This document shows, piece after piece, positions 36,605 through 57,551 of a stretch of 60,486 bases of DNA. Position 1 is the first letter of the stretch, and each line of letters opens with the position of its first letter. The stretch comes from an uncultured Candidatus Saccharibacteria bacterium (GTDB taxonomy: Bacteria; Patescibacteriota; WWE3; 2-01-FULL-39-13). The position numbers and the translations under genes are program-made. The stretch covers positions 32,482 to 92,967 of the forward strand of contig CAZEDS010000002.1 of the NCBI GenBank assembly GCA_964510925.1. Reading direction: 5' to 3'. Below the pieces are notes generated by a model that did not search any database, was not told the origin of the DNA, and saw only the letters and a program-made list of their open reading frames with translations.

Positions 36605-36680
36605 TGGTGATCCAGGGTGGACTTGAACCACCGACACCCTGCTTAAAAGGCAGGTGCTCTAACCACTGAGCTACTGGACC
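36605..36680 (-). tRNA. trnK: tRNA-Lys(UUU)
   Basis: 76 nt; acceptor GGTCCAG/CTGGATC, anticodon arm CCTGC-CTTTTAA-GCAGG, GTTCAAG T-loop, encoded CCA. Confidence 0.95.
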
Positions 36681-41914: not shown

Positions 41915-41965
41915 ATAAATTTAATTCAATCGTAACATACCATGTGTTTATGGTAGGCTCAATTA

Positions 41966-43174
41966 ATGTCACGTATTAATAAAATTGTAAAGTCGCCTAT
42001 TTTTATAGTATTTATCATTTTGATCGGCACTTTGTTACCTATTATTTATTTTTTGAGCATAAAGTTTAAGAATCTAAATCCGGTGGATTATATTCCTCAA
42101 GCTTCATGCAAAAGCTCAATAAAAAAGCACATGATTCATAGTCAAGACGAATTAAACAAATATCCATTTGCAATATTTGCTGGTGGTTGTTTTTGGTGTA
42201 CTGAAGCCGATTTTCAAAAAATGGACGGCGTTTTAGAAGTGATTTCGGGTTATACAGGTGGAAAGCTCGAAAATCCAACCTATTCTGATGTTACAAGTGA
42301 AACATCCGGTCACCGTGAAGGAGTCAAAGTTTATTATGATCCATCAAAAGTTAGCTACGAACAGTTAGTTCGAAACTTTTTAAAACATATTGATCCAACA
42401 GATGCTTTTGGCCAATTTTATGATCGAGGCGAAAGCTATGAGACAGTTATTTTCTACTTAAATGATACAGAAAAGCTTACAGCTCAAAAGAATTTAGACG
42501 AATTAAATAATGCAAAGATCTTTGAAAAACCAGTTGCCGTAAAACTTATTGCCTTTACTAATTTTTATAATGCAGAAGAATATCACCAAAATTTTGCAGA
42601 AAATAACACAACAAGATATTGTGCATATAGAAATGCTTCAGGCAAAGATACTTTTTTAGACAAATATTGGAAAAACCGAGACTGGGTCGATTCAAATAGT
42701 AGCTCGGGTTCAAAGTCGTCGACCAATGTTTACACAAAACCTTCACAAGAAGAAATCAAAGCAAAGCTAACTCAGCTTCAGTATGATGTTACACAAAACG
42801 AAGCAACCGAACGTGCTTTTAATAATGAATACTGGGACAAAAAAGATGCCGGTATTTATGTCGATATTGTAAGTGGCGAACCACTTTTCAGCTCAACCGA
42901 TAAGTTTGATTCAGGTACAGGCTGGCCAAGTTTCACAAAAGTTTTAGATCCAACATATATAGTAGAGAAAAAAGATAACCGATTATTTTTTTCAAGGACC
43001 GAAGTCAAAAGCAAAATTGCAGACTCCCATTTAGGTCATGTTTTTAATGACGGACCAAAAGACAAAGGAGGTTTGCGTTATTGTATGAATTCGGCTTCCC
43101 TAAAATTTATTCCAAAGGCACAGATGGAAGCCATGGGTTACGGCGATTATCTTGACCAAATATCGGAAAACTAG
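41966..43174 (+). CDS. msrAB: Membrane-anchored MsrA-MsrB fusion
   Basis: N-terminal TM; AGGCFWC, AEEYHQ; [23 protein letters not shown]. Confidence 0.93.
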
Positions 43175-43939: not shown

Positions 43940-44014
43940 GGCCCTATCGTCTATCGGTTAGGACAGCAGGTTTTCATCCTGTAAAGCGGGGTTCGATTCC
44001 CCGTAGGGTCACCA
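43940..44014 (+). tRNA. trnE: tRNA-Glu(UUC)
   Basis: 75 nt; acceptor GGCCCTA/TAGGGTC, anticodon arm GCAGG-TTTTCAT-CCTGT, GTTCGAT T-loop, encoded CCA. Confidence 0.95.
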
Positions 44015-44020
44015 AAAAAT

Positions 44021-44053
44021 AGCCAGCACCTAAAAGGTGGTGGCTTTTTTTTT
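44021..44053 (+). terminator. Intrinsic terminator after tRNA-Glu
   Basis: AGCCAGCACC-TAAAA-GGTGGTGGCT followed by a T-run. Confidence 0.8.
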
Positions 44054-44131
44054 TGATCCTACAACGGAATTTAACTTTCTGTTGCGATAGCACAGAGGTT
44101 CTGGGCGAAGCCTAGCGAACGCAGTGAGCGC

Positions 44132-44149
44132 TTCCCCGTAGGGTCACCA
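44132..44149 (+). repeat. 18-bp direct repeat of the tRNA-Glu 3' end (att-like)
   Basis: TTCCCCGTAGGGTCACCA, identical to 43997-44014. Confidence 0.85.
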
Positions 44150-44254
44150 TTTGTCCTTCACTCACATCAAATTCACGTTTTAGCTCTATAAATGGGGCTA
44201 ATTGTGGTGTTCCATACTTTAATTCATCGTAGGTAGGAAGACCTTCAAAAATAA

Positions 44255-44515
44255 GACTCTCAAGCATACACACATTTTGTTGAAACTCTTGGAATCAAAA
44301 TCTCTATGAGTAAAAAATCAAGCCCATGGGAAAATGGCTTTCAGGAATCTTTCTATTCACATTTTAAATCAGAATTTGGTGACTTTAATAGGTTTGACGA
44401 TATTGCCTCTTTAATCGAAAATATTTACAGGCAAATTTGGTATCACAATAATCAAAGAATTCACACTGCTTTAAAAATGAGCCCACTTAGTTATAGAGAA
44501 TTCCATTCCAAATAA
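44255..44515 (+). mobile_element. IS3-family transposase remnant (integrase-core C-terminus)
   Basis: Frame open from 44255: ..LGIKISMSKKSSPWENGFQESFYSHFKSE..YHNNQRIHTALKMSP; the upstream part is missing. Confidence 0.75.
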
Positions 44516-44810
44516 TTGGGTACTTGCCATTTAGTATTGATTCTTTTTCAGTTTCCTCTATTGCTCTTAATCCACCTTCAACCATTGTTACTGATTTATT
44601 ATTATTTGCTTTTGGTAAAAACTCATCAAAGAATGATTTTAATTGATCAAATTGTGAATGGTCAGAATCAAACGTATGAATAGATCCAAAATAATAAAGA
44701 AATTGATTATCCTTTTCTATTTTAAAAGTTATAGGTTTGCCAGTTAGTCGAGAGATTAAATTGTTGTCCCATTTTGATAGTAGCGATTTAATTTCATTTA
44801 ATTTATTCAT
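44487..44810 (-). CDS. Hypothetical protein, probably truncated
   Basis: 107 aa; the C-terminus runs into the antisense of the IS remnant. Confidence 0.4.
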   Translation of the reverse strand: MNKLNEIKSLLSKWDNNLISRLTGKPITFKIEKDNQFLYYFGSIHTFDSDHSQFDQLKSFFDEFLPKANNNKSVTMVEGGLRAIEETEKESILNGKYPIIWNGILYN

Positions 44811-44889
44811 TAGGATTCTATGCTTATTAACTTGAAATAATAATTTTCTTCTATATTATATCTTTATTACACAATTATATTCACATGGT

Positions 44890-45603
44890 ATGACTAAACA
44901 AGGGCTAGAGAAAATATTCGAAAATAATAAGGATTTACAAAAAAGAATAGAAATACTTAAGCTTGCTTCAAATTTGAATCCAGGTTTTAAACAACCTCAT
45001 ATAGTTGGTGGATTTTTAAGAGACCTAGTTCTAGATAACAAGCCCTCTGACTGTGATGTAATTTTTGAAGGTAATATAAAAAATCAGCCAGGGATCTTAG
45101 AGTGTGTTATTGAGGCAGCAAAGACTTTGGGCTACGAACCGTACAATGATTGGGAATTTGAAAACTTTAAAACATGGGATTTGTCAGATAATATAATTGA
45201 GGATTCCATTGGATTCTATTCTAATCATACCGACTATTTATCCCAAATTACCTATGATACAGAAAAAAGAGTGTCTATTGGTTCTGATAGAGTTTTATAT
45301 TGCTTAGAAAATAGACTATATGATGTTAGATATGATGGAATTTTAGTCTGGGTTGGCTTCAGAGGACGAAGTTATTTTAGATCTTTGGCTGGTCTTTGCG
45401 TTAGAGGGCTTTATCTTTGTCATAAGCTTAACCTAAGCACATCGGAAGCTTCAACTAAATTATTTAAGAAATTTGATGAATTATATGAGAAATTAACTAA
45501 TAAAGAACAAGAGGATGTACTAGAACAATGGAAAAGAAAAACAATAAACCTGAGTAATTTAGAAGTAACGCTTTCAAAATACGAAATAAAAAAGTTAAAG
45601 TGA
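44890..45603 (+). CDS. Nucleotidyltransferase (CCA/poly(A)-polymerase-like head, Pol-beta fold)
   Basis: IVGGFLRDLVL...SDCDVIF (GGxxRD and DxD); no HD domain. Confidence 0.7.
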   Translation: MTKQGLEKIFENNKDLQKRIEILKLASNLNPGFKQPHIVGGFLRDLVLDNKPSDCDVIFEGNIKNQPGILECVIEAAKTLGYEPYNDWEFENFKTWDLSDNIIEDSIGFYSNHTDYLSQITYDTEKRVSIGSDRVLYCLENRLYDVRYDGILVWVGFRGRSYFRSLAGLCVRGLYLCHKLNLSTSEASTKLFKKFDELYEKLTNKEQEDVLEQWKRKTINLSNLEVTLSKYEIKKLK

Positions 45604-46542
45604 ATTTATAATTAAATCGGCCTCTACCACAAATTTCTTTAACATTTCATAGTTCCTTACCTTTTTAGATTCTGAGTACTCTATACCGTCCAATATTTTC
45701 CCCGCATAAAAGTTTATTTTGTTCAATAACATTAGAACTCTTGTCTGATTTAATAATCTATGAAAATCATAGCCCGTATATAGTTGCTCAAATGCTTCTA
45801 AATTTATATCGGTCTTTGCCATTACCTCTACATAGTTTTCTATATATTGATTTATGTCGACGAGTCCGCTTCCAAATCTCGTATTAACCCAATCTAAAAC
45901 TTTAATTTGCCCTGTAATTCGATTGACCAATAAATTCTGAGTTTCCAAATCTCCGTGTTCAAGTATATTGGGTAATTCATCATTTTCCTTTAAAAATAAT
46001 AAATATTGTTCTTCCCTATTCTTTAGATTGAGCAGCATATCGTTAAGTTCTTCGAATTTACCTCCCATTAATAATTTTTCAATTATATTCAAAGGTTTGA
46101 GAATTAAATATTTTTTTTGAATATCAACTGGTTCTTTATATAATGTAGTATCTACTTTGAATGTAATTTGATGTTTATTTATTATCCAAGTCTTTAATTT
46201 AGATAGGTCGTTTCTATCAAAATTTCTATAATTATCAGAAGATAGGTATTCCATGATGATAAGGTTATTCGAGGAATATAATATTTTAGGGGCGGATAGG
46301 GCATCATGAGTATTAAGTATTTCGGTATATGTCTTAACCTCTCTTGTATGCCAATCTTCTAAATACTCTTTAACAATGAATCTTTTATTTACAACTTCTA
46401 TCAAAAAAACATTGTCTGTAAAACCACTTGGTATGTGCTTTGATTTTATTACACCAATATCTTCTTGAAGAATATTCCTTAAAGCTTTTTTTATTTCTTC
46501 AATATCATTTAGCTCTCCCCATACAAGCTTATTCTTTTCCAT
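45595..46542 (-). CDS. Aminoglycoside-phosphotransferase/choline-kinase family kinase
   Basis: SGFTDNVF, FIVKEY, Brenner motif HGDLETQN, VLDW. Confidence 0.82.
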   Translation of the reverse strand: MEKNKLVWGELNDIEEIKKALRNILQEDIGVIKSKHIPSGFTDNVFLIEVVNKRFIVKEYLEDWHTREVKTYTEILNTHDALSAPKILYSSNNLIIMEYLSSDNYRNFDRNDLSKLKTWIINKHQITFKVDTTLYKEPVDIQKKYLILKPLNIIEKLLMGGKFEELNDMLLNLKNREEQYLLFLKENDELPNILEHGDLETQNLLVNRITGQIKVLDWVNTRFGSGLVDINQYIENYVEVMAKTDINLEAFEQLYTGYDFHRLLNQTRVLMLLNKINFYAGKILDGIEYSESKKVRNYEMLKKFVVEADLIINSL

Positions 46543-47374
46543 ATTTTTCTATTAAGTGGTCAAGAATAGTTACACCTTTATTTTCTAGCTCTATTCTCGG
46601 TGTATATTTTGTAACAATATTATTATGCCAAGTTTGATCCTTTAAAAAATCTTTCTTTCCGTGTAATTCATATACGTTATTAATTGAATCTATTATTTTT
46701 TTATAAGTTGCTTTGCTACAAAGACTATCTTTACCATAACTTCTAGTATAGTTAACTAGTACTTGAGGTATATATGAAAAAGCATTGGGGAAGAATTCAG
46801 CATGTCTTAATAAAAATTCAAAGTCTTCATAGAGGTCAAGTTCTTCATTCCAATAACCTACTTTATTTATTGTTTCACGACTATGAATCATTCCATTCGT
46901 ATCACATTGTATTTTTAAACTTATTATATTTTCATAGCTAAAGATATCTTTTTCAAATAGTAATGATTCAATAAAAGTTTTTTGAACAGTTCCATCATTA
47001 TTCAACAAATTAACCTTAAAATTTTTATTAGGCATAAAAATTTTTTTATCAGGCTCTTTTTTTATATGGGAGTCAATAGTTGATAGCCAATCAGTATAAA
47101 CAAAATCATCGCTATCCAAATAAGCTATATATTCACCTCTAGCCATTTTAATTCCCATATTTCTTGCACTTGAAACACCTGTGTCATTTTCATTTAGGAT
47201 ATATTTAACCCTTTGATCATTAAAAGCCGTAACTAACTTATCAGTACCATCCTTAGACTTTCCATCAACTATTAATAACTCCCAATCCGAGAAATCTTGG
47301 TTAATAACACTTCGAATGGATTTCCATATAATGTTCGCTCTGTTTTTTGTTGGAGTAATTATTGTGTATTTCAT
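46529..47374 (-). CDS. GT2 family glycosyltransferase
   Basis: IITPTKNR, IVDGKS.DGT, GVSSARNMG, YLDSDD, YEDFEFLLR. Confidence 0.9.
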   Translation of the reverse strand: MKYTIITPTKNRANIIWKSIRSVINQDFSDWELLIVDGKSKDGTDKLVTAFNDQRVKYILNENDTGVSSARNMGIKMARGEYIAYLDSDDFVYTDWLSTIDSHIKKEPDKKIFMPNKNFKVNLLNNDGTVQKTFIESLLFEKDIFSYENIISLKIQCDTNGMIHSRETINKVGYWNEELDLYEDFEFLLRHAEFFPNAFSYIPQVLVNYTRSYGKDSLCSKATYKKIIDSINNVYELHGKKDFLKDQTWHNNIVTKYTPRIELENKGVTILDHLIEKYGKE

Positions 47375-47868
47375 TCTATCTTAATTATATTTTTCCTAGC
47401 TAGAAAATCAAAAAATAACTCTTGGCTATCAAAAACATGTAAATTGTTTACCATTATGAATCTATAATATTGAGATGTTTTATTTGCTATATCTTCTTCT
47501 GTAACCTCCGTACTGTTATATTTGGTACGCAGTCCAGTTCTTTGTTCCTTATTACCTTTAATTCGGTGTAATAAATCTATTGATTCCTCTGGTCGCAAAT
47601 TTTCATGTCTTAAAGCTATTAATTTAGCTGCTTTCCCAGATAAATAACCCAATAATTTTTTTCTGCCAACAGGGTGAGTTATTTCTTTTGGATATAAAGT
47701 TTCAACATCTTCGTCCGTTAAAATTATTTCTAGGTTAAAAATGATTTCATATCCACTTTGAACTATATCTGCTAATAACAACTCTTCTTGGCTTAGTTCT
47801 AAAGTATCTGGTTTTATCATTATTCCTGAACTATCTTCTATAGTTGTTCGGTCAATATTTTCTATCAT
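47371..47868 (-). CDS. Nucleoside-diphosphate-kinase-like protein
   Basis: IMIKPD, GYEII, LT.EDVETLY, GLRTKY, NNLHVFDS (compare NAVHGSDS). Confidence 0.65.
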   Translation of the reverse strand: MIENIDRTTIEDSSGIMIKPDTLELSQEELLLADIVQSGYEIIFNLEIILTDEDVETLYPKEITHPVGRKKLLGYLSGKAAKLIALRHENLRPEESIDLLHRIKGNKEQRTGLRTKYNSTEVTEEDIANKTSQYYRFIMVNNLHVFDSQELFFDFLARKNIIKIE

Positions 47869-47927
47869 AAACGGGAACTTATTGTAACATAATGATCTTC
47901 TTTTACTTTTAATCTATAATCAGGTCT

Positions 47928-48371
47928 ATGAATCACTTAGCTATTTATAGCAGAAACAGAAGTAAAGATTACATCACGATGATGCTGTTAGGTACAAAAA
48001 CAGTCGATGTAAAACTTAGCTATAGGAAAATGGCACCATATAAAAAATTGGCCGAGGGTGATGTTGTTTATATAAAAGAATCTGCTGGCCCAATTGTTGG
48101 AAGATTTACGATTAACAAAGTAAAGGATGTAGAGATTATAAACCCTAATCAAATACTAGATATGCTATTTGATATTCGCGATGAAGTAGGATTAGAGACC
48201 GATGAAGCTGTCTTAAAAATGTATAACAAAGTTATGTATAAAAAATATATGACAATTTTTTGGTTTGAAAATCCTGAAAAATTAGTACCTCCAATTAAAA
48301 TAATAAAATCTGATAGACGAGTTTGGGTTCCTGACTATAATATTCCTGATGAAATTTATTACTCCTTCTGA
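47928..48371 (+). CDS. ASCH/PUA-like domain protein
   Basis: HLAIY..YITMMLLGTKTVDVK..PYKKLAEGDVVYIKESAGPIVGRFTI. Confidence 0.72.
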   Translation: MNHLAIYSRNRSKDYITMMLLGTKTVDVKLSYRKMAPYKKLAEGDVVYIKESAGPIVGRFTINKVKDVEIINPNQILDMLFDIRDEVGLETDEAVLKMYNKVMYKKYMTIFWFENPEKLVPPIKIIKSDRRVWVPDYNIPDEIYYSF

Positions 48372-48416
48372 TTTTCTTATACATAAATTGTATAAGGAAG
48401 TGTTGGCGCTTTATAC

Positions 48417-49700
48417 ATGATAGGTATAAGATTTCTTAGTATGCAAAATATCAAAAAGTTGAGAATCAACTTGCATAGTAAACAAATAGAGGCTAATTGG
48501 GATTTATATCAGAAAAGATATTTAGAAATCGAAGCACAGCTACAGAAGCCTCTTACCCTACTTTTCTCAACAAACTTAAAAAAATATATACATAGTACTG
48601 GATCCTTCCAAATTAATAGCAAAGAGTATGAATTAATTGATGACAAATTAAAAAATTTCTTTGAAACAGACCAAAGTGTTATAAGAATGAAAACAAAGAT
48701 TATTTTTAGAGGTAAAAATTATTATCCAGGATTGTATGAAGACTTGAATGATGAAAGCAAATTTAAACTAATTTTTTCAGAAATTAACGAAATCAAAAGT
48801 AGTTTAAGTAACCTAGATTTAAAGTCTAATCTAATATTATTCTTAGTTTTGGCTGATTATCTTAAAAATTATTATTTGATTATTTTAAATGCCTTTGATG
48901 AATCGTTAAGAACTGTTTGCCCAAATGATATTGATGACAAAATTTATTTTAATTTAATAGAAACAATACAAAGAATTGAATATTGTACATTTAAATCAAT
49001 TAATGATGAAGTAATACATTGGGATAAAGATATATTAAACTACAATATTCGTAAGATTGAGAAGCATCTATTGGAAATATCTAAATTAAAAATAGTATTT
49101 AACAAACCTTTAATTAGAAATATAAGGGAGTGTAATCATATAATAAAAATCCTAGATTTCGCAAATAGGATCTCGGACGAATACTTACCTAGAAATACTC
49201 TCTTAGTAAGCTTTGCCTATGGTGGAATAGAACTTCCATTTTCTATTAATGCTTTGAGAGCTATTCGGGGAAAAAGCACCTTGCCAATCTGTATTTGTCG
49301 CCTATCTAATTATTCTTCTGGAACGATAGATAAAATACAGGATTTATCTGATACGCTGTCTCATTTCTATTCAGAGAAATACATTGAACAATTTGAAAAT
49401 ATAATGATTTTAGATGATTCAATAACAACGGGAAAAACTATTCAAAACTTTGTAGACTTACTTCCTAATAAACTAAAAAAGCTTTATTTGGGGATTGTCT
49501 CATTTAAAAATAGTAACAGATATCACCATTTAGTAATGCCTTACCATGGGGGTGTTAATCCCGAAGTCTTAAAAAATGCGGTTATAACTTCAACTAGTAA
49601 TTTTGCTAAGACGTACAAGAAATTTAGTTATACAAATAAAAATGGTGTTTTTGATAAAGAAAAAACAAAAATATACAAATTATTAAATATTTATAAATAA
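48417..49700 (+). CDS. Type I phosphoribosyltransferase-domain protein with unknown N-terminal domain
   Basis: LVSFAYGGIELP loop and PRPP-binding ILDDSITTGKTI. Confidence 0.75.
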   Translation: MIGIRFLSMQNIKKLRINLHSKQIEANWDLYQKRYLEIEAQLQKPLTLLFSTNLKKYIHSTGSFQINSKEYELIDDKLKNFFETDQSVIRMKTKIIFRGKNYYPGLYEDLNDESKFKLIFSEINEIKSSLSNLDLKSNLILFLVLADYLKNYYLIILNAFDESLRTVCPNDIDDKIYFNLIETIQRIEYCTFKSINDEVIHWDKDILNYNIRKIEKHLLEISKLKIVFNKPLIRNIRECNHIIKILDFANRISDEYLPRNTLLVSFAYGGIELPFSINALRAIRGKSTLPICICRLSNYSSGTIDKIQDLSDTLSHFYSEKYIEQFENIMILDDSITTGKTIQNFVDLLPNKLKKLYLGIVSFKNSNRYHHLVMPYHGGVNPEVLKNAVITSTSNFAKTYKKFSYTNKNGVFDKEKTKIYKLLNIYK

Positions 49701-49702
49701 AA

Positions 49703-50377
49703 ATGACAATTATATTCGACTTTGATGGGACTATAATCAAGTCCTCACAATTACATAAAAAGGGATGGGATCTAGCCCTTAAGCAATTAAATATTGATGA
49801 TTCATTGGATATTTTGCTTCCGTATGAGCCTAATTTAAAAGAACGTTTCGATAGCTATAGAAGAATTAAATCTGGATTTATTGAAAATAAAAAAATATTC
49901 AACAAGGTAAGTGGATACTTCCAAAGTAACGATAAGTCTTTTTTGGTTAAATCTATTATGGATTTAAAAGAAAACATGACAATTTCAAACGTAATGAATA
50001 TGGATACATATGATTTGATATCTCTTTGTGCGGTAAATTTAACCCCTGCTCTAATGGAGTTGAAAGATAATAAAAATACTCTTGGAATAATTAGTTCTAC
50101 AAGGAAAACTATTATAACGTCTATTCTAACAAAGCTTAATTTAGTAGACCTTTTCGACGAAATAGTTGGAGAAGAGAGCATGTATAAACAGGATATATTA
50201 ATGGATAAGCCGGATCGATATTCAGGAGATATATTTAGTAGCAAAACCAATAAAAAGATAGATGTATATGTAGGCGACAATGATTTAATAGATAGAGAAT
50301 TTTCAAACAACTATCGCTGTAAATTTATACTAATGGATTACAAGTTTGATATGTTTAATTTAAAAAATTTAATATGA
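49703..50377 (+). CDS. HAD-superfamily phosphatase
   Basis: IIFDFDGT (motif I), IISST, DKP, YVGDN.ID. Confidence 0.85.
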   Translation: MTIIFDFDGTIIKSSQLHKKGWDLALKQLNIDDSLDILLPYEPNLKERFDSYRRIKSGFIENKKIFNKVSGYFQSNDKSFLVKSIMDLKENMTISNVMNMDTYDLISLCAVNLTPALMELKDNKNTLGIISSTRKTIITSILTKLNLVDLFDEIVGEESMYKQDILMDKPDRYSGDIFSSKTNKKIDVYVGDNDLIDREFSNNYRCKFILMDYKFDMFNLKNLI

Positions 50378-51693
50378 AAAAACTTAAAATATGTAATATA
50401 AAAAATCTATATGAGACTCGCAGTGCTGCAACTCTAGGCGTTGATTATCTCGGTTATCATTTAATTTCTGAAAGTGATTTCAACAGATCGAAAGAAATAA
50501 AAAATTGTATCTCTGAATTAAGAGATTTCTACCCTAAAACAAAAAGTGTTCTAGTAACAAAAGAGAAAAACATAGAAATATTAGAAAAGACAATTGATTT
50601 ATTTGAATTCGATGCAGTTCAGCTTCATTATGAGGAATCGAAGGAAGTAATAGCTCATTTACGAGGTAAGTATGGAGATGTAATAGAGATATTTCAAGTA
50701 TTAACAGTAGATTCAAGCGCAGTTGATATATCTGCAGAAGCGGACTATCACATACTTGATAAGTCATTCTTAGGAGGAACGGGAAAAGAGATAGGTTTAG
50801 AAACAATTGAAAATTATATTAAAAAGCTAGGGAACGTAAAGTTATTTTTGGCTGGTGGGTTATCTCCTGAGAATGTTCATAAATATATAAATCTTGAAGT
50901 ATTGGGTTTTGATATACAATCTGGTATGAAGGCAGATATTACTAGCGAGTATGAAAATACTTCTTTCATAAAAATAAAAAAAATAACTACTTTGTTGGGA
51001 AAAGAGCTTCAAGTTAAATCAAATCAAATTGGCTTTGCTATTCAAGATATAAATCAAAAAAATTCAGACCTATTAAAAGAAGCCATCGCAGCAGGAATTG
51101 ATTTCTTTCATTTAGATATTAGTGATGGCTTTATTGGTGATATTACTGATTTAACAAAAACAGTAAGCTTGATTTCTGGATTAAATGAATTATCATCTCA
51201 TTTCCCTATTCATTACCATTTCTTTACTAAATCATTTGAAAAATTCATTGAACTTAATAACGAGTTATGGATTGATAAGTTAGATAACGCACATTTTTTT
51301 GTTCATATAAATCGGGATAATTATAAATATTTTACATCATTAGAACGAGATCATAAGAATATATTTTTCGCCTTAGATGTTAAAGATTTGATTGATGAAT
51401 CTTTTCCTTGGGAAAATTTTGTTAAAGAATCATTATTGATTTGTTTTCAATCTGAATCTCATGCTGAAAGGATAGATAACTATAATAAAGCTAGAAAAAT
51501 GATAAATTATTCAACAAAGAAAAATCCGATGATTATAATAGATAGAAGCATTAGTATAGATGTAGTAGAGCAAATTGATCAAATTCGTAACTTAAGTATA
51601 GTGAGTGGAAGTTACTTAAAACAAGATATTAATAAGAATTATAATATCTTAAAAAATTATTTAAATGAAAGGATTAAATATGAAAAACAATAA
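50374..51693 (+). CDS. TrpF-like isomerase fused to a ribulose-phosphate-3-epimerase-like domain
   Basis: N-half KICNI, AVQLH, ILDK..GGTG, LAGGLSPENV, DIQSG; C-half HLDISDG, HYH, IIDR, VSGS. Confidence 0.72.
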   Translation: MKKLKICNIKNLYETRSAATLGVDYLGYHLISESDFNRSKEIKNCISELRDFYPKTKSVLVTKEKNIEILEKTIDLFEFDAVQLHYEESKEVIAHLRGKYGDVIEIFQVLTVDSSAVDISAEADYHILDKSFLGGTGKEIGLETIENYIKKLGNVKLFLAGGLSPENVHKYINLEVLGFDIQSGMKADITSEYENTSFIKIKKITTLLGKELQVKSNQIGFAIQDINQKNSDLLKEAIAAGIDFFHLDISDGFIGDITDLTKTVSLISGLNELSSHFPIHYHFFTKSFEKFIELNNELWIDKLDNAHFFVHINRDNYKYFTSLERDHKNIFFALDVKDLIDESFPWENFVKESLLICFQSESHAERIDNYNKARKMINYSTKKNPMIIIDRSISIDVVEQIDQIRNLSIVSGSYLKQDINKNYNILKNYLNERIKYEKQ

Positions 51694-52630
51694 AATTAGA
51701 ACTGCTGTTATAGATGTAGGGACTTTGAAATCCAAATTCGAGATTCGTGAATTCGATGAAAATCTTAATTCAAAAGTTTTATATAAAGATAAACAATTAA
51801 CTGTTTTAGGCCGGGACCTAGATAAAACAGATAATATGATTATAGAAAAATCGGTAGTTAAAACTATTGAAGCATTAAAAGATTTTAAGAATAAATTAGA
51901 GGAGCATAAAGTTGATAAGTATATAGCTGTTACAACAGAAGCTATTAGAAAGGCGAAAAATGCAAACGAAGTTATAGATAGGATATATAATGAAACAGGT
52001 ATAAATTTAACAACTTTGTCTCATGAGGATGAAGCTAAGCTATATTTCTATTCAGTCTCTAAAGATTTTAAAGATAAAACAATCGCCGTCTCTGACATCG
52101 GTGGTGGAAGCGTCCAAGTAGTTGTGGGTAAAAATAATGATATACATGAAATTCATTTGTTTAAAACTGGCACTTATTATCTACAAGAAGGCTTTTCTAA
52201 AACGCATCATCCAACATTAGAAGAGGTTGAAAATGCATTTAAGTATGTAAAAAAAGAATTGGAATCATTACTTGAAACAAAGCATACTCCTGAATATTTG
52301 ATTTATGGAACGACAAATATAGTAGATTTTTTTAAGAGCATGAACTTAGAACTAAGCCCCTTGGACGGTGAAAATAATGATCACAGTTATTATCTGGAGG
52401 TGAAAAAGCTAATCCCTCTATACGAGAAATTAATAGGTCTAAGCTATGAAGATAGAATGCCTTTATATCCAGAAGAACCATATTATATGTGGGCCGCTGA
52501 TAAAGCATTAATGAATATATTTGCTATTTCTGAGCATTTAAAGGTTAAAAATGTAGTGCCAAGCAATAACAATATCTCTACAGGTTTATTAATTGATTTG
52601 GCAAGACAACTAAGAGATGCAAAAGAATAA
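51680..52630 (+). CDS. Ppx/GppA family phosphatase (ASKHA fold, no HD domain)
   Basis: AVIDVGT, TTEAIRKAKNA, LSHEDEA, DIGGGSVQ; AAAGGA SD before ATG 51680. Confidence 0.85.
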   Translation: MKNNKIRTAVIDVGTLKSKFEIREFDENLNSKVLYKDKQLTVLGRDLDKTDNMIIEKSVVKTIEALKDFKNKLEEHKVDKYIAVTTEAIRKAKNANEVIDRIYNETGINLTTLSHEDEAKLYFYSVSKDFKDKTIAVSDIGGGSVQVVVGKNNDIHEIHLFKTGTYYLQEGFSKTHHPTLEEVENAFKYVKKELESLLETKHTPEYLIYGTTNIVDFFKSMNLELSPLDGENNDHSYYLEVKKLIPLYEKLIGLSYEDRMPLYPEEPYYMWAADKALMNIFAISEHLKVKNVVPSNNNISTGLLIDLARQLRDAKE

Positions 52631-53411
52631 TATAAAGAAAATTTTAATAACTGGAATTAGTAGCGGTATAGGCAAAGAGATTGTAAGAACTCTATCTAAA
52701 GATCCGAACTTATACATTATTGGTTGTAGTCGTAAAAACATAGACATAGATTTTAAAAATTTTGAATATCATTATTTGGATTTAGAAAATCAAGAAAGCT
52801 GTAGAAATCTCGCAAATAAACTAAAGAATATCGATGCGATAGATGTTTATATTAACAATGCATCCTTAGGTTATAAAGGGACGGTAGAAGATTTGGATTT
52901 AAATTTTATAAGGCAACAATTTGAAGTTAATCTTTTCGGACCACTTGCCATATTAAAATCAATAATTTCAAGTTTAGAAAAAAACAAAGGAATGATTATA
53001 AATATAGATGCATTAGGTAGTGTTATAGACACCCCTACTTTTGGGTATTATGCTTCATCGAAATTAGCTTTTAATAAACTGTTAAATATTTTAGCGATGG
53101 AAACAAATATAAGCTTTCATAATATATATCTTGGAGCTGTTAAATCAAATTTTGGTAGAAATATACAATCAAATATTGATATAGAAAATAGTAGATATAA
53201 AAATTTATATGAAGAATGGCAAGAAAGATTCATTAATTTCTTTAAGGCGAGAAATAAAGCAGAGGATGTTGCAACTTTAGTAGAAAAACTAATAAACGGT
53301 GAATCAAATAAATCATTTATATCTATCAGGGATCATATCTTATTCTTAAGTAAGATATATTTGCCTCAAAGTCTATATAAGTTAGTATTATTTCATTTCT
53401 ATAAATTATGA
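52617..53411 (+). CDS. Short-chain dehydrogenase/reductase
   Basis: ITGISSGIG, INNAS, FEVNLFG, YASSK (YxxxK). Confidence 0.9.
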   Translation: MQKNNIKKILITGISSGIGKEIVRTLSKDPNLYIIGCSRKNIDIDFKNFEYHYLDLENQESCRNLANKLKNIDAIDVYINNASLGYKGTVEDLDLNFIRQQFEVNLFGPLAILKSIISSLEKNKGMIINIDALGSVIDTPTFGYYASSKLAFNKLLNILAMETNISFHNIYLGAVKSNFGRNIQSNIDIENSRYKNLYEEWQERFINFFKARNKAEDVATLVEKLINGESNKSFISIRDHILFLSKIYLPQSLYKLVLFHFYKL

Positions 53412-53989
53412 AACCTAAAAGATTTGGGCTATTTGCCTCCATTAAGTATATCGATAAGAACATAGATACATATAAAAAGATTGCGGATGTTATTAGAAAA
53501 GAAGGGATTGATATGTATAAGCCAGAGTTCGTAGACGATTACCCTAATTCAAAGAAAAAAACAGCAACCAAGAATGATTCAATTGTTGAAGGAACTCAAA
53601 AACAAATAAGATATATAGATTTTGCGGTTGCTTTCTTTTCTGATAAATCTAGGACAGTGTTTTTTCAAACGATATTAGCACTTGAAAATAAAATCCCTGT
53701 TCTATGTGTTATACACGAAAATTCTTATGAAAACTTTCCTGAAACGTTGTTATCCTATGGAGAAGATTTTATTACCGTAAGAAAATACAAGAACCTTAAT
53801 GACTTAGAGGAAATATTAACTGATTATATTAATGAGATCGAACCTCCCAAAAGGCGCTTTAATGTAGTATTGAAAACAACAACTCTAAAACAAATGGAGC
53901 AACTCTCTTCAAAAATGGATTATAGTAAAGCCGAGCTCATAAGATTCTTAGTAGAAAAGGAGTATAAGCGAATTTTTGGATCTAGATAA
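53408..53989 (+). CDS. Nucleoside-2'-deoxyribosyltransferase-like domain + C-terminal ribbon-helix-helix
   Basis: IDFAVAFFS..LALENKIPVLCV; C-terminal RRFNVVL..LKQMEQLS..SKAELIR.LV. Confidence 0.6.
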   Translation: MKPKRFGLFASIKYIDKNIDTYKKIADVIRKEGIDMYKPEFVDDYPNSKKKTATKNDSIVEGTQKQIRYIDFAVAFFSDKSRTVFFQTILALENKIPVLCVIHENSYENFPETLLSYGEDFITVRKYKNLNDLEEILTDYINEIEPPKRRFNVVLKTTTLKQMEQLSSKMDYSKAELIRFLVEKEYKRIFGSR

Positions 53990-54051
53990 TAAAATAGCTA
54001 TCTTTTCTATAAGGGATCTTTCAAATAATATTTATCTAAAGTATATAAATA

Positions 54052-54485: not shown

Positions 54486-57400
54486 CTAATTAAATTTCCC
54501 ATTCGAAATATCAAAGAATCGTTCAAAAAATCCAGTCAGTTTATCGATTACTGTTTCTCTCTTTTTTGTGCGATCACCGGTTGGCGAGAAAAGTGACATT
54601 GGAGGCAGTACTTTGGTAATAGCCGTACCGGTTGTCGTTACAGATCCATCCCTAAATGCATTTTTTATGAAATTATATGTTGCTGTTGTATCTAGCGATT
54701 CATTCTTTATAATTGCATCTAACTCTTCGATCTTTTCTTTTTCGATAAAAGTTCGCCAATCATTTTCAATTTCTGAATGAACATCTAAAGTTGATATAAA
54801 TTTGTTAATAAGGTCTTTTTTGTTTCTAAGTTCAACGCTTGAATCTACGGCTTTGTTAATATCTACTAATATTTCTCGGTTTTTTGTGTGGTCTTCGTGA
54901 TATTTTTTAATGAGGCTTAAAATATAATCGATATTAATTTCTATCTGTTTTATTAGTTCCATTTCAAAAATCAGATCATCGTTTATATTTTCCTTTTCTT
55001 CATTTTTTCCTTTTCTAAATTCTTTATAAAGATCAATATAAATGCTGTGATAATCTTGTATATCACGATCTGTTAAGATTTCGTTACCAGTAAATTCATC
55101 AAAGCTTGTTAGTATATTTCTTAATCTCAAAATTGAGTTATACAATTTAATAAAATCTTTTTGATTTTGTTCACCAACAATTCTTTCACCAATTGGAAAT
55201 TTTTGTAAAAGCTCACCTACCAAGCTTGCATAGCCTCGAATATCTTTTTCATCTTCTTTATAACCATTGTAATAATCTGAATAAGATTTAAGCAAAACAA
55301 TACCGCAAGCTTCTTTGTCTCCAAAGAGTGAGATTGAATCGTTTGTTGCTTTTTCTAAATTTCGGAAGCAGACAATATTTCCAAAAGTTTTTACACTATT
55401 TAATATACGATTGGTTCGGGAAAATGCTTGTAATAGACCGTGCATTTGTAAGTTTTTATCTACCCATAAAGTATTAAGCGTCGTCGCATCAAAGCCGGTT
55501 AAAAACATATTAACAACAATCAAAATATCGAGTTCTCGATTTTTAACTCGTTCGCTTACATCTTTATAGTAATTTTGGAATTTATCAGCTGATGTATCAA
55601 ATGAAGTTCCAAACATTTTATTATAATCTTCGATGGCTTTTTCAAGAAAATCTCTTGAACTTGCATCTAAACCGCTCGTATCTTCGGAGTTTTCGTCCGT
55701 CATTCCATCTGAATCTTCATCATTTACTCCAAAACTATAAATAGTTGCGATTTTAAGTTGTTTGTCGCTTGGCACTTGGGCTAATTGATTTTTAAATTCT
55801 GAATAATATTTTTTTGCCATTTCAATTGATGAAACAGCAAATATAGAATTAAAACCTGCAAGTCTACGATCTTTAAGTTGATAGAAAATATTTCGTTTAG
55901 TTTTTTGATCAAAATGTTTTAAGATATAACCTACAATATTTGATAATCTAGCAGGTGAAGATAAAACTGCTTCCCTATCAATATCTTTTATTTGGGCGTC
56001 TTCGATATTTTCCGCTTCACGCACTGTTGATACATAATCAACCTTAAATGGTAAAACATTTTTATCTGCAATTGCATCAACAATTGTATAGGTATGCAAC
56101 TTAGCTCCAAAAGCTTGTTCAGTTGTTTTTAATTGAGACTTACTATTAGATGAAGCATTATTTGCAAATATTGGAGTACCTGTAAAGCCAAAAATATGAT
56201 AATTCTTGAAAGCTTTGGTAATAGCTGTATGCATATTACCAAATTGAGAACGATGGCACTCATCAAAAATTAATACTACATGGCCATTAAAAACAGTATG
56301 TCCAAGATTTTTTGATATAAATCGATCAAGTTTTTGAATTGTTGTGATGATAATTTTCGCGTTTGAGTCTTCAAGCTGTTTCTTTAAGATTGATGTACTT
56401 TTATTACTATTTGCAGCTCCTTTTTCAAACTTATCGTACTCTCTCATTGTTTGGTAATCTAAGTCTTTTCTATCAACTACAAAGATTACCTTATCGATCA
56501 TTTTTAATTTGCTAGCCAATTGAGAGGTTTTAAAACTGGTTAAAGTTTTACCAGAGCCGGTTGTGTGCCAAATATATCCACCGGCATCTACAGTACCAAG
56601 CTTTTTATAATTGGTGCTGATTTCTATTCGATTTAATATTTTTTCGGTTGCAACTATTTGATAAGGCCTCATGACTAAAAGTTGGCGATCAGCAGTAAAT
56701 ACACAGTATTTAGTTAATATATTAAGTAGCGTATGTTTTGCAAAAAAAGTTTTAGCAAAATCTATTAAATCAGTTATTGGCCTATTAGTTTCATCTGCCC
56801 ACCAACTTGTAAATTCAAAACTGTTGCTTGATTGTTTACCTTTTTTTACTTTGGAAGAACCTGATTCTTTAATATGTTGAAAGCGCGTTGTATTACTATA
56901 ATATTTGGTATGAGTACCATTTGAGATAATAAACAATTGAATGTATTCATATAAACCAGATAAAGCCCAAAAGCTTTCGCGCTGATATCTATTAATTTGA
57001 TTAAAAGCCTCTTGGATTGAAACCCCTCGCCTTTTAAGTTCAATATGAACAAGTGGTAAACCATTTACCAAAACAGTTACATCGTAACGATTCGCACGCT
57101 GACCATCTTCGGTTGCATATTGATTAATAACCTGCAAAGTATTGTCGTGAATATTGTTTTTATTTAGAAAATAGATATTTCGTATGAGTCCATTATCAAG
57201 TGTTAAGTTTTTAACATGATCCTCTTGAATAGTTGCTGTTTTGTCTTTAATACTCTGATTTGGATTTGCGATTTCGCCGGTAAAGAATCTATCCCATTCA
57301 CTATCTGTAAAAGTAAAATTATTCAGCTTTTCTAGCTGCTTGCGTAAATTTAAAATTAAATCGGCTTCTGATTTTATCTTAAAAAATTCATAACCTTGGT

Positions 57401-57551
57401 TTTTTAACTGCTCAATAAATTCCTGCTCTAACTCTGATTCGCTCTGATAACCTTTATCACGAACAGATAAAGTATCAGGAAAATACTGTGCGACGACCGT
57501 ACTCTTATTGTTTTGTGCAACAGTTTCATAACCAATAGATTTATTTGCCAT
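54486..57551 (-). CDS. hsdR: Type I restriction endonuclease subunit R (EcoR124I-like)
   Basis: RYDVTVLVNGLPLVHIELK nuclease, HTTGSGKT, DECH, FTGTP, MFLTGFD, QAFSRTNR. Confidence 0.96.
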   Translation of the reverse strand: MANKSIGYETVAQNNKSTVVAQYFPDTLSVRDKGYQSESELEQEFIEQLKNQGYEFFKIKSEADLILNLRKQLEKLNNFTFTDSEWDRFFTGEIANPNQSIKDKTATIQEDHVKNLTLDNGLIRNIYFLNKNNIHDNTLQVINQYATEDGQRANRYDVTVLVNGLPLVHIELKRRGVSIQEAFNQINRYQRESFWALSGLYEYIQLFIISNGTHTKYYSNTTRFQHIKESGSSKVKKGKQSSNSFEFTSWWADETNRPITDLIDFAKTFFAKHTLLNILTKYCVFTADRQLLVMRPYQIVATEKILNRIEISTNYKKLGTVDAGGYIWHTTGSGKTLTSFKTSQLASKLKMIDKVIFVVDRKDLDYQTMREYDKFEKGAANSNKSTSILKKQLEDSNAKIIITTIQKLDRFISKNLGHTVFNGHVVLIFDECHRSQFGNMHTAITKAFKNYHIFGFTGTPIFANNASSNSKSQLKTTEQAFGAKLHTYTIVDAIADKNVLPFKVDYVSTVREAENIEDAQIKDIDREAVLSSPARLSNIVGYILKHFDQKTKRNIFYQLKDRRLAGFNSIFAVSSIEMAKKYYSEFKNQLAQVPSDKQLKIATIYSFGVNDEDSDGMTDENSEDTSGLDASSRDFLEKAIEDYNKMFGTSFDTSADKFQNYYKDVSERVKNRELDILIVVNMFLTGFDATTLNTLWVDKNLQMHGLLQAFSRTNRILNSVKTFGNIVCFRNLEKATNDSISLFGDKEACGIVLLKSYSDYYNGYKEDEKDIRGYASLVGELLQKFPIGERIVGEQNQKDFIKLYNSILRLRNILTSFDEFTGNEILTDRDIQDYHSIYIDLYKEFRKGKNEEKENINDDLIFEMELIKQIEINIDYILSLIKKYHEDHTKNREILVDINKAVDSSVELRNKKDLINKFISTLDVHSEIENDWRTFIEKEKIEELDAIIKNESLDTTATYNFIKNAFRDGSVTTTGTAITKVLPPMSLFSPTGDRTKKRETVIDKLTGFFERFFDISNGKFN

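What the first reader, a model, noticed from the sequence alone, without database searches (positions are those of the whole stretch)
50374..51693. TrpF-Rpe double-barrel fusion outside tryptophan biosynthesis
The N-domain retains the TrpF catalytic Cys (KIC) and Asp (ILD) and its phosphate loops; the C-domain retains Rpe metal ligands (HxD, H, D). No other trp gene is present. With the upstream PRTase this gives a coherent route: phosphoribosylate an amine, Amadori-rearrange it to a 1-amino-1-deoxyribulose-5-P, epimerise C3, then reduce (SDR) and dephosphorylate (HAD). I know of no described TrpF-Rpe fusion.
Basis: partly seen in the sequence, partly recalled or inferred. Interest (0 to 1): 0.7.

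Follow-up and report, generated by a model that had tools for sequence, protein, structure and literature searches.

The report
TrpF–Rpe-like double-barrel enzyme cassette
A tiny-genome (candidate phyla radiation) bacterium that cannot make tryptophan carries a real fusion of a tryptophan-pathway-type sugar-amine isomerase with a pentose-phosphate-type epimerase, inside a rare, horizontally moving gene cassette that most likely builds an undescribed sugar-amine or nucleoside-like compound.

Summary
ORF 50374-51693 (+) encodes a 439-aa protein of two (βα)8 barrels (AlphaFold pLDDT 91.7).

- **N half:** TrpF/PRAI-like (Pfam E 1.6e-20). The catalytic Cys7 and Asp129 and the GGTG/AGG phosphate loops are conserved.
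- **C half:** a very divergent Rpe-like barrel. All four Rpe metal/catalytic ligands (H246, D248, H282, D390) and the β8 Gly-Ser are conserved down to 20% identity. The Met cushion and the DGG loop are lost.

The join is not an assembly artefact. At least 76 sequence clusters from independent assemblies share the architecture. HAD+TrpF+Rpe-like triple fusions and split, permuted versions also exist.

The host is a 0.89-Mb Patescibacteria genome. It has no IGPS, no second TrpF, no canonical Rpe and no transketolase. The gene lies in a low-GC cassette (44.9-54.0 kb) found in 1 of 134 genomes of its class and 3 of 401 of its phylum. The cassette always carries a PRTase-like gene, HAD, SDR, Ppx/GppA, GT2 and an APH-like kinase.

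It leaves out Ppx/GppA and the nucleotide-handling genes. No PRPP synthetase is detectable in the genome. I found no published description.

The parts
50374..51693 (+). TrpF-like + Rpe-like double (βα)8-barrel fusion protein, 439 aa (P0001)
   Evidence: ORF. Pfam PRAI and Ribul_P_3_epim. AlphaFold pLDDT 91.7. Foldseek finds TrpF and Rpe. About 30 full-length homologues at 38-52% identity.
50374..50958 (+). N-terminal TrpF/PRAI-like barrel (residues 1-195). Catalytic C7 and D129; phosphate loops GGTG 134-137 and AGG 160-162; family-specific H29, T62, K63.
51019..51690 (+). C-terminal divergent Rpe-like barrel (residues 216-439). Metal/catalytic ligands H246, D248, H282, D390; β8 G412-S413; family-specific H311, N313, N316, D335, D338, Q359, S360, R366, R391, K427.
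48417..49700 (+). 427-aa protein: N-terminal helical domain of unknown fold plus C-terminal type I PRTase-like domain with the PRPP-loop motif ILDDSITTGKT
   Evidence: Weak Pfam PRTase_2/Pribosyltran. Profile against PDB finds HGPRT at E 0.002. AlphaFold pLDDT 79 and Foldseek hits to APRT/OPRT/HGPRT. Conserved upstream of the fusion.
49703..50377 (+). HAD-superfamily phosphatase, 224 aa; its stop overlaps the fusion's start by 4 bp
   Evidence: Pfam HAD_2 E 5.6e-14. Fused to TrpF+Rpe-like in P0069 and P0090.
51665..52630 (+). Short two-domain Ppx/GppA-family phosphohydrolase, 321 aa. It is the most conserved gene of the cassette (57-70% identity) and is cassette-specific.
   Evidence: Pfam E 1.6e-34. 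Aquifex Ppx/GppA 1t6c E 8e-28. Found in 1 of 12 family genomes. Synteny.
52617..53411 (+). Short-chain dehydrogenase/reductase, 264 aa
   Evidence: Pfam adh_short E 9e-26. Synteny.
53408..53989 (+). 193-aa protein: α/β N-domain plus C-terminal ribbon-helix-helix. Candidate ligand-sensing regulator. Highly conserved (mean column identity 71%).
   Evidence: Alignment. Weak CopG match on residues 148-183.
47928..48371 (+). 147-aa conserved small protein, first gene of the + operon. The ASCH-like assignment rests only on Pfam E 0.16.
47371..47868 (-). 165-aa NDK-like protein (weak), first gene of the divergent arm
   Evidence: Pfam NDK E 0.003. A homologue in L014 also gives a weak NDK hit.
46529..47374 (-). 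Family 2 glycosyltransferase, 281 aa
   Evidence: Pfam E 3.6e-30. Conserved with the cassette.
45595..46542 (-). APH / EcKL / choline-kinase-like small-molecule kinase, 315 aa
   Evidence: Pfam EcKL E 6.7e-8, APH E 1e-6. Conserved with the cassette.
44890..45603 (+). 237-aa nucleotidyltransferase-like protein (weak). Membership in the cassette is uncertain.
   Evidence: Pfam PolyA_pol head E 5e-4. PHROG nucleotidyltransferase E 1e-5. No homologue found in the related loci.

Best explanation
P0001 is a bifunctional enzyme of a specialised, horizontally transferred pathway. It is neither a tryptophan enzyme nor a pentose-phosphate enzyme.

Proposed steps:
1. The N barrel performs a TrpF-type Amadori rearrangement. 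Asp129 acts as acid on the ring oxygen and Cys7 as base at C2'. The substrate is an N-(5-phosphoribosyl)amine and the product is a 1-amino-1-deoxy-ribulose 5-phosphate.
2. The C barrel binds a divalent metal through H246, D248, H282 and D390. It uses the two Asp residues as Rpe does, inverting C3 of that 2-ketose through a metal-stabilised 2,3-enediolate.
3. The N-ribosylamine is supplied by the adjacent PRTase-like protein. In some lineages a PNP/UDP-phosphorylase-like domain takes that role.
4. The ketone is then reduced by the SDR and the 5-phosphate is removed by the HAD phosphatase. This gives an N-(1-deoxypentityl) compound.
5. The GT2 and the APH-like kinase decorate that compound further.

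The cassette-specific Ppx/GppA, together with the Gmk, PfkB, NDK-like, MazG and NUDIX genes in relatives, suggests that the amine partner or an intermediate is a nucleotide or a polyphosphorylated species.

Shown: the fold, the conserved catalytic residues, the conserved gene order, the fusion, fission and permutation of the domains, and the absence of the trp and pentose-phosphate contexts.

Inferred: every chemical step, the substrate and the end product.
For: - Two confident barrels, structurally nearest to TrpF and Rpe.
- C7, D129, H246, D248 and H282 are invariant, and D390 and G412 at least 90% conserved, across 22 fusions down to 20% identity. All four Rpe ligands align with E. coli Rpe.
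- The order PRTase-like, HAD, fusion, Ppx, SDR, 193-aa gene, with GT2 and APH nearby, is kept in 8 independent Patescibacteria loci.
- A HAD+TrpF+Rpe-like triple fusion lies beside a PRTase and an SDR.
- A distant 476-aa fusion lies beside a PRTase-CE gene and two HAD genes.
- Split, permuted versions keep the two barrels adjacent.
- Genes of the + operon overlap or abut, with no terminator between them.
- The genome lacks IGPS, any other TrpF, canonical Rpe and transketolase.
- The cassette is in 1 of 134 genomes of the class and 3 of 401 of the phylum sample.
- Chemically, the Amadori product is a 2-ketose 5-phosphate, which is the substrate class of Rpe (established mechanisms of TrpF and Rpe; my knowledge).
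Against: - No activity data exist.
- No PRPP synthetase N-domain is detectable in this genome or its family. A PurF-like PRPP-dependent enzyme is present, however.
- The PRTase assignment is weak: Pfam is below cut-off and Foldseek E-values are about 1e-2.
- The Rpe half has lost the Met cushion and the DGG loop. It scores 20.7 bits against a cut-off of 212.6 for the Rpe equivalog, so its reaction could differ from C3 epimerisation.
- The route gives no necessary role to Ppx/GppA.
- The identity of the amine is unknown.
Confidence: 0.5

Rival explanations
1. Pentose scavenging for an envelope glycopolymer. The PRTase-like or PNP-like enzyme frees ribose 5-phosphate (or PRPP) from host-derived nucleotides. 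The TrpF-like half acts as a plain aldose-ketose isomerase and the Rpe-like half makes xylulose 5-phosphate. The SDR reduces it to a pentitol phosphate, which is CDP-activated and built into a teichoic-acid- or capsule-like polymer by the GT2.
For: - GT2 and a choline-kinase/APH-like kinase are always present. A TagD-type cytidylyltransferase (PF01467) is in the cassette in L001 and L010.
- No Prs is found, so a PRPP-consuming step is awkward.
- A PNP/UDP-phosphorylase-like domain replaces the PRTase in L013 and L017.
- The lineage lacks Rpe and transketolase.
- CDP-ribitol and CDP-arabinitol pathways from ketopentose phosphates are known in Gram-positive bacteria (my knowledge).
Against: - The genome already has RpiB.
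- The TrpF-specific Cys/Asp pair is strictly kept.
- A HAD phosphatase fused to the isomerase-epimerase would destroy the phosphate needed for CDP activation.
- Gmk, MazG, NUDIX and NDK-like genes are not explained.
- The window's own cassette has no cytidylyltransferase.
Confidence: 0.2
2. The cassette is a conflict or defence module. It makes, or is triggered to make, a toxic or signalling nucleotide analogue. The fusion remodels the ribose of a nucleotide-derived N-riboside, and the RHH protein and small conserved proteins act as regulator or immunity factor.
For: - In the window the cassette abuts a type I R-M system with an embedded OLD/AriA-like ATPase. It lies in a low-GC island beside tRNA-Glu.
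- The distant 476-aa fusion sits with a PRTase-CE (a domain associated with type III retrons, PMC13712802), a CAP12-PCTIR TIR protein, Fic and TraG.
- Nucleotide kinases and house-cleaning hydrolases (Gmk, NDK-like, MazG, NUDIX, PfkB) recur.
- Distribution is patchy, as expected for horizontal transfer.
Against: - No cassette protein reaches significance against any PADLOC model; the two hits, for Ppx/GppA and the SDR, are at E about 0.007.
- Other loci have no defence neighbours.
- No effector-like or sensor-like domain was recognised.
- A seven-to-eleven-enzyme pathway is unusual for a defence system.
Confidence: 0.15
3. Housekeeping replacement: the protein supplies ordinary TrpF and/or Rpe activity to the cell.
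For: It is the only PRAI hit and the only Rpe-family hit in the genome.
Against: - No IGPS and no transketolase are present.
- None of the 11 other genomes of the family has Rpe or the fusion, so the lineage lives without either.
- Scores are far below the equivalog cut-offs.
- Prevalence is 1 of 134 and 3 of 401.
Confidence: 0.03
4. Assembly or gene-calling artefact that joins two neighbouring genes.
For: None, beyond the fact that the genome is a 45-contig assembly.
Against: The same 420-440-aa architecture is found without a stop in about 30 homologues at 38-52% identity from NCBI, JGI, ENA and Logan assemblies, and in at least 76 clusters overall. The inter-domain packing is predicted with confidence (pTM 0.91).
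Confidence: 0.01

Closest known systems
Phosphoribosylanthranilate isomerase TrpF (PF00697; e.g. T. maritima 1nsj/1lbm, E. coli 1pii)
   Same: (βα)8 fold with TM 0.8-0.85. Catalytic Cys on β1 and Asp on β6, the QLH motif, and the GGTG, AGG and S-G phosphate loops.
   Different: There is no trp pathway in the genome. Scores are far below the TrpF equivalog cut-offs. β2/β3 carry the family-specific residues H29, T62 and K63, so the aglycone pocket is different and probably polar. It is always joined to, or adjacent to, an Rpe-like barrel.
Ribulose-phosphate 3-epimerase Rpe / allulose-6-phosphate 3-epimerase AlsE (PF00834)
   Same: (βα)8 fold. H-x-D, His and Asp metal/catalytic ligands and the β8 Gly-Ser phosphate site are kept. 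PF00834 is the only Pfam family that recurs.
   Different: About 19% identity. The Pfam hit is partial. TIGR01163 scores 20.7 against a cut-off of 212.6. The Met cushion is lost and DGG has become D-R-S. Many extra invariant polar residues are present. There is no transketolase partner.
TrpC-TrpF (IGPS-PRAI) fusion of E. coli, and other double-barrel fusions of consecutive steps
   Same: Two ribulose-phosphate-binding barrels for consecutive steps on one 5-phosphopentose-amine scaffold in a single chain.
   Different: The partner barrel here is an epimerase-type metal enzyme, not a decarboxylating cyclase. The domain order is TrpF first.
HisG-HisA logic reused in coformycin/pentostatin biosynthesis (PRTase, then Amadori isomerase, then SDR reduction, then dephosphorylation) - from my knowledge, not tested here
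   Same: The same kinds of enzymes in sequence: phosphoribosyl transfer to a nitrogen, an Amadori rearrangement by a TrpF/HisA-class barrel, an SDR ketoreduction and a phosphatase.
   Different: The PRTase here is type I, not HisG-type. There is no SAICAR-synthetase-like gene. An added Rpe-like epimerase, Ppx/GppA, GT2 and APH-like kinase are present.
Angustmycin/psicofuranine pathway (Rpe-family epimerase AgmD, APRT-like AgmA, HAD phosphatase AgmE) - from my knowledge, not tested here
   Same: It combines an Rpe-family ketose-phosphate 3-epimerase, a type I PRTase homologue and a HAD phosphatase to make an unusual-sugar nucleoside.
   Different: That pathway epimerises before glycosyl transfer, needs a Prs-like pyrophosphokinase and has no TrpF-like barrel.

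Membership tests
TrpF / PRAI (EC 5.3.1.24) | (βα)8 barrel matching PF00697 above the gathering score | tested here: met
   74.1 bits against 22.7. Foldseek TM 0.74-0.85 to TrpF structures.
TrpF / PRAI (EC 5.3.1.24) | Catalytic Cys (β1) and Asp (β6) plus the phosphate-binding loops | tested here: met
   C7 and D129 are invariant in A5. D129 aligns to the E. coli PRAI Asp.
TrpF / PRAI (EC 5.3.1.24) | Orthology-level score (NCBIfam equivalog models) | tested here: not met
   Best score is 69.9 bits against a cut-off of 215 (NF002298). All 14 TrpF-containing models are far below cut-off.
TrpF / PRAI (EC 5.3.1.24) | Works within tryptophan biosynthesis (TrpD and TrpC partners) | tested here: not met
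   No IGPS in the genome. No trp genes in any of the neighbourhoods.
TrpF / PRAI (EC 5.3.1.24) | Isomerises N-(5-phosphoribosyl)anthranilate | not testable with these tools
   Needs an enzyme assay or trpF complementation.
Ribulose-phosphate 3-epimerase (EC 5.1.3.1) | (βα)8 barrel matching PF00834 | tested here: inconclusive
   25.3 bits against 21.1, but only profile positions 13-77 are matched. 13 of 14 members hit. Full-length coverage in P0050, P0059 and P0069. Foldseek TM 0.62-0.72.
Ribulose-phosphate 3-epimerase (EC 5.1.3.1) | Metal/catalytic ligands H-x-D (β2), His (β3), Asp (β7) | tested here: met
   H246, D248 and H282 are invariant and D390 is at least 90% conserved. All align to E. 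coli Rpe.
Ribulose-phosphate 3-epimerase (EC 5.1.3.1) | Met cushion around the enediolate and the DGG phosphate loop | tested here: not met
   HLDISDG against HFDVMDN, HYHFF against HLMV, IDRS against VDGG.
Ribulose-phosphate 3-epimerase (EC 5.1.3.1) | Orthology-level score and pentose-phosphate-pathway context | tested here: not met
   TIGR01163 scores 20.7 against 212.6. No transketolase N-domain in the genome.
Type I phosphoribosyltransferase (neighbouring P0003) | PRTase fold with the acidic-hydrophobic PRPP loop followed by T-T-G-x-T | tested here: inconclusive
   The motif ILDDSITTGKT is present and conserved. Pfam is below cut-off. HGPRT E 0.002. Foldseek E 4e-3 to 1e-2 with prob 1.0.
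Known anti-phage defence systems (PADLOC 2.0) | Any cassette protein matching a defence-system model | tested here: not met
   No significant hit for the seven proteins of the + operon. Only the neighbouring type I R-M and OLD-like genes match.

The most novel reading that the evidence does not exclude
The cassette encodes a previously undescribed way to hang a pentitol (ribityl-like, but C3-epimerised) side chain on a nitrogen. The steps are phosphoribosyl transfer to an exocyclic amine of a nucleobase or nucleotide, an enzymatic Amadori rearrangement, metal-dependent C3 epimerisation inside the same polypeptide, ketoreduction and dephosphorylation. This chemistry is distinct from the RibD-type reduction used for riboflavin. 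The product would be a new N-pentityl nucleobase or nucleoside-like metabolite that episymbiotic Patescibacteria glycosylate or phosphorylate and use against, or in exchange with, their host or phages.
Probability: 0.3. Interest if true: 0.8.

Novelty: new variant of a known kind. Interest (0 to 1): 0.6.

Why it matters
- TrpF and Rpe are textbook enzymes of central metabolism. Here both scaffolds, with intact catalytic residues, are welded together and recruited into an accessory pathway. The host organisms have neither tryptophan synthesis nor a pentose-phosphate pathway.
- If the proposed sequence of reactions is right, it defines a new enzymatic route to 1-amino-1-deoxy-ketopentose and pentitol derivatives. 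It would also assign a first function to a conserved cassette of about ten genes in candidate-phyla-radiation bacteria, which are thought to make very few metabolites of their own.
- It gives a concrete, testable set of proteins: soluble, small and with a confidently predicted fold.
- It corrects automatic annotation. Relatives are labelled 'phosphoribosylanthranilate isomerase', which would wrongly suggest tryptophan biosynthesis in these genomes.

Tried and rejected
- **Housekeeping Rpe gap-filler.** Rejected because no genome of the family has Rpe or transketolase, and only 1 of 12 has the fusion.
- **Ppx/GppA as a chance housekeeping neighbour.** Rejected because it occurs only in the cassette-bearing genome of the family.
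- **PADLOC and PHROGs scans of the cassette.** Nothing useful.
- **Profile-against-PDB searches.** For the 147-aa protein they gave only spurious talin hits, so its ASCH label stays unsupported. For the 193-aa protein they gave only a weak CopG-type RHH match.
- **N-terminal helical half of the PRTase-like protein.** No structural match.
- **Quick FastTree of TrpF domains.** Fusion-type domains cluster far more than chance (13 changes against 54 in shuffles) but do not form one clean clade. Some 'solo' rows are fragments, so I draw no conclusion about a single origin.
- **The listing of cluster members.** It returned an obviously unrelated 43-aa HTH cluster for P0001, which I ignored.
- **Six literature searches.** No description of the fusion or the cassette was found.
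- **Promoter scan.** At chance level.
Full report
**What is there**

The ORF at 50374-51693 (+) is intact. It has an ATG start and encodes 439 aa. Its start overlaps the stop of the upstream HAD gene by 4 bp, and the next gene starts 29 bp before its stop.

N half:
- Pfam places a PRAI (TrpF) domain on residues 5-185 (E 1.6e-20, 74 bits against a cut-off of 22.7).
K5-I6-C7 is on β1 and I127-L128-D129 on β6, followed by GGTG (134-137), AGG (160-162) and Q-S (182-183).
- A profile-to-PDB alignment puts D129 on the catalytic Asp of the E. coli PRAI domain.

C half:
- Pfam gives a weak, partial Ribul_P_3_epim match on residues 229-296 (E 1.1e-5, 25.3 bits against 21.1; profile positions 13-77 only).
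- NCBIfam agrees on both halves, but every score is far below the equivalog cut-offs (TrpF 69.9 against 215; Rpe 20.7 against 212.6). Neither half is an ortholog of the housekeeping enzyme.
- Scanned alone, 13 of 14 C-domains hit PF00834 and no other family recurs. In more distant relatives the match covers the whole Rpe profile.
- hhalign of the C-domain profile against E. coli Rpe aligns 169 columns. H246-x-D248 falls on the Rpe H-x-D, H282 on the β3 His, D390 on the β7 Asp and G412-S413 on the β8 Gly-Ser.
- The same alignment shows what is not kept. The methionines that cushion the enediolate in Rpe are Ser and Phe here, and the DGG loop is D-R-S.

Fold:
- An AlphaFold2 model built on 25 homologues is confident (pLDDT 91.7, pTM 0.91). 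It shows two eight-stranded β/α barrels.
- Foldseek against the PDB returns TrpF structures first (TM 0.74-0.85 on the target). Rpe, ThiE and KDPG-aldolase-type barrels follow (Rpe TM 0.62-0.72).

**Not an artefact, and wider than one genome**

- A word-indexed search found about 30 full-length homologues (415-439 aa, 38-52% identity) from NCBI, JGI, ENA and Logan assemblies.
- In their alignment D129, H246, D248, H282 and D390 are invariant and C7 is at least 90% conserved. A set of extra C-domain residues is also invariant: H311, N313, N316, D335, D338, Q359, S360, R366, R391 and K427.
- An exhaustive HMMER search of 1.8 billion representatives found further, more distant fusions of about 420-490 aa. 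It also found 717-721-aa proteins with a HAD domain in front of TrpF+Rpe-like, and 655-673-aa proteins in which the Rpe-like barrel follows a PNP/UDP-phosphorylase-like region.
- With HMMs of the two halves, 76 of the 185 proteins collected carry both.
- Across 22 fusions down to 20% identity, C7, D129, H246, D248 and H282 remain invariant. D390 and G412 are at least 90% conserved. H29, T62 and K63 emerge as signatures of the fusion-type TrpF half.
- In Shapirobacteria-type loci (L013, L017) the two barrels are separate, adjacent genes in the opposite order.
- Fusion, fission and permutation with retained catalytic residues is the pattern expected of two active enzymes that work on the same pathway.

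**Genome and neighbourhood**

The window belongs to an 892-kb, 45-contig genome rated 97% complete. Related loci carry the titles Candidatus Saccharibacteria, Patescibacteria group and Candidatus Shapirobacteria.

What the genome has and lacks:
- This ORF is the only PRAI hit and the only Rpe-family hit.
- There is no IGPS and no transketolase N-domain.
- RpiB is present.
- None of the other 11 genomes of the same GTDB family has Rpe or the fusion.
- The fusion is in 1 of 134 genomes of the class and 3 of 401 sampled from the phylum.

The region 46-54 kb has 28-29% G+C, against 32-38% elsewhere in the window. It starts just after tRNA-Glu (43940-44014). It ends at a type I R-M operon with an embedded OLD/AriA-like ATPase.

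The gene is therefore part of a rare, horizontally acquired island. It does not fill a housekeeping gap.

**The cassette**

tblastn of the window's proteins against all fetched loci, together with the gene tables, shows a conserved set. Window coordinates are given for each gene.
- GT2 (46529-47374, −).
- APH/EcKL/choline-kinase-like kinase (45595-46542, −).
- A 147-aa protein (47928-48371).
- A 427-aa PRTase-like protein (48417-49700).
- HAD (49703-50377).
- The fusion.
- Ppx/GppA (51665-52630).
- SDR (52617-53411).
- A 193-aa protein (53408-53989).

Notes on individual members:
- Ppx/GppA and the 193-aa protein are the most conserved members (57-71% identity, against 33-55% for the rest).
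- Ppx/GppA is absent from the other 11 genomes of the family, so it travels with the cassette. Its nearest solved relative is the short Aquifex Ppx/GppA.
- The 193-aa protein ends in a ribbon-helix-helix and is a plausible ligand-responsive regulator.
- The PRTase-like protein has the PRPP-loop motif ILDDSITTGKT, which is conserved. It gives a profile hit to HGPRT (E 0.002). Its C-terminal fold matches APRT, OPRT and HGPRT, while its N-terminal helical half matches nothing.
- Variable extras in relatives are PfkB kinase, guanylate kinase, a TagD-type cytidylyltransferase, MazG-like, two NUDIX genes and the NDK-like protein.
- A very distant 476-aa fusion lies with a PRTase-CE gene, two HAD genes and two unknown genes, next to a CAP12-PCTIR TIR protein, Fic and TraG. 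The one paper that names PRTase-CE lists it among type III retron partners (PMC13712802).
- In L013 the neighbours are a PLP decarboxylase, an aminotransferase, an amidohydrolase and a nucleotidyltransferase.

**How it most likely works**

The minimal recurrent module is an N-glycosyl-bond enzyme (PRTase-like or PNP-like), the TrpF-like barrel, the Rpe-like barrel and a HAD phosphatase, usually with an SDR.

TrpF chemistry needs an N-(5-phosphoribosyl)amine and yields a 1-amino-1-deoxy-ribulose 5-phosphate. That product is a 2-ketose 5-phosphate, the substrate class that an Rpe-type metal site epimerises at C3. These are the established mechanisms of both families and come from my own knowledge.

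It is the most economical reading of the conserved residues, the synteny and the Rosetta-stone fusions. I hold it at about 0.5.

What the route does not explain:
- the cassette-specific Ppx/GppA;
- the nucleotide kinases and hydrolases;
- the GT2 and the kinase.

These suggest that the amine partner or an intermediate is a nucleotide or polyphosphate species, and that the product is further decorated.

A real difficulty is that no PRPP synthetase N-domain is detectable in this genome or in any of the 12 genomes of its family (the control rang in 14 of 14 genomes). Yet the genome encodes a PurF-like GATase+PRTase protein. Either PRPP has an unrecognised source, or these PRTase-fold enzymes use another donor or run in reverse.

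**Rivals**

1. Pentose scavenging to a pentitol phosphate or CDP-pentitol for an envelope polymer (0.2). It is favoured by the GT2, the choline-kinase-like kinase, the occasional cytidylyltransferase, the lack of Prs and the PNP-like replacement of the PRTase. It is disfavoured by the existing RpiB, the retained TrpF-specific Cys/Asp pair, the HAD fusion and the nucleotide genes.
2. A conflict or defence module making a nucleotide analogue (0.15). It is favoured by the island context here and by the TIR/PRTase-CE context in L015. It is disfavoured by the absence of any significant PADLOC hit and by neutral contexts elsewhere.
3. Housekeeping TrpF or Rpe (0.03).
4. Artefact (0.01).

**Novelty**

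Six full-text searches found no description of a PRAI+Rpe-like fusion or of this cassette. Where a source names relatives at all, it calls them 'phosphoribosylanthranilate isomerase' or 'hypothetical protein'.

The folds and the chemistry are of known kinds. The architecture, its pathway context and its occurrence in organisms lacking both parent pathways are new. I rate it a new variant of a known kind, with interest 0.6.

An earlier first-stage note from this scan reports the same architecture in another genome (e1-1315448). Another note flags the whole cluster here (e1-5224126). I treated both as leads only.

Noticed in passing
window 54486-60188 (− strand): A type I restriction-modification operon: HsdR 54486-57551 and HsdS 57541-58716. 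A 495-aa OLD/AriA/GajA-like ABC-type ATPase (58701-60188) is embedded upstream of hsdS and overlaps it (PADLOC Old E 3e-50, AriA E 4e-34).
   Followed up: partly
whole genome G000 and its GTDB family (12 genomes): No PRPP synthetase N-domain (PF13793) is detectable in any of the 12 genomes, including a single-contig one. The control rang in 14 of 14 genomes. Yet G000 encodes a PurF-like GATase+PRTase protein (461 aa, contig C12) and another PRTase fragment at a contig end (C14). The source of PRPP in this lineage is unexplained.
   Followed up: partly
whole genome G000 and its family: The lineage has RpiB but no Rpe and no transketolase N-domain, so no recognisable non-oxidative pentose-phosphate pathway. 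The RpiB gene of G000 is split across two contig ends (C32, C44).
   Followed up: partly
window 43940-44014 and 44000-54000: tRNA-Glu(UUC) lies at the left border of a low-GC stretch (28-29% against 32-38% elsewhere in the window) that holds the cassette. This is consistent with an island inserted beside a tRNA gene. No integrase was looked for.
   Followed up: no
window 36516-36680 (− strand): Two adjacent tRNA-Lys(UUU) calls. One is only 70 nt long, with the anticodon at position 27, which suggests a truncated or rearranged copy.
   Followed up: no
L013 8627-11826 and L017 1826-4982: A split and permuted version of the finding. A 660-673-aa protein (unknown N region + PNP/UDP-phosphorylase-like + Rpe-like barrel) is followed by a separate 385-393-aa TrpF-like protein with a C-terminal extension. 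In L013 it is flanked by a PLP decarboxylase, a nucleotidyltransferase, an aminotransferase and an amidohydrolase.
   Followed up: partly
protein P0082 (1417 aa): A giant multidomain relative with a TrpF-like segment near residues 866-952 and the Rpe-like barrel at 1152-1410. Its other domains were not examined.
   Followed up: no
L015 3701-4126 and 5543-11544: A distant 476-aa TrpF+Rpe-like fusion sits in an operon with a PRTase-CE (a domain linked to type III retrons), two HAD genes and two unknown genes. It lies next to a CAP12-PCTIR TIR protein, Fic, DUF2958 and TraG, which looks like a mobile-element or defence setting.
   Followed up: partly
window 38999-43174: Neighbouring genes outside the island: a radical-SAM enzyme (38999-40084), a PGA_cap capsule-synthesis-type protein (40074-41174, −), an FAD/NAD oxidoreductase (41171-41914, −) and a fused MsrA-MsrB methionine sulfoxide reductase (41966-43174).
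   Followed up: no
tool output: the listing of cluster members placed P0001 in a cluster of 43-aa helix-turn-helix proteins from Ruminococcus. This is clearly unrelated, probably an indexing collision, and was ignored.
   Followed up: no
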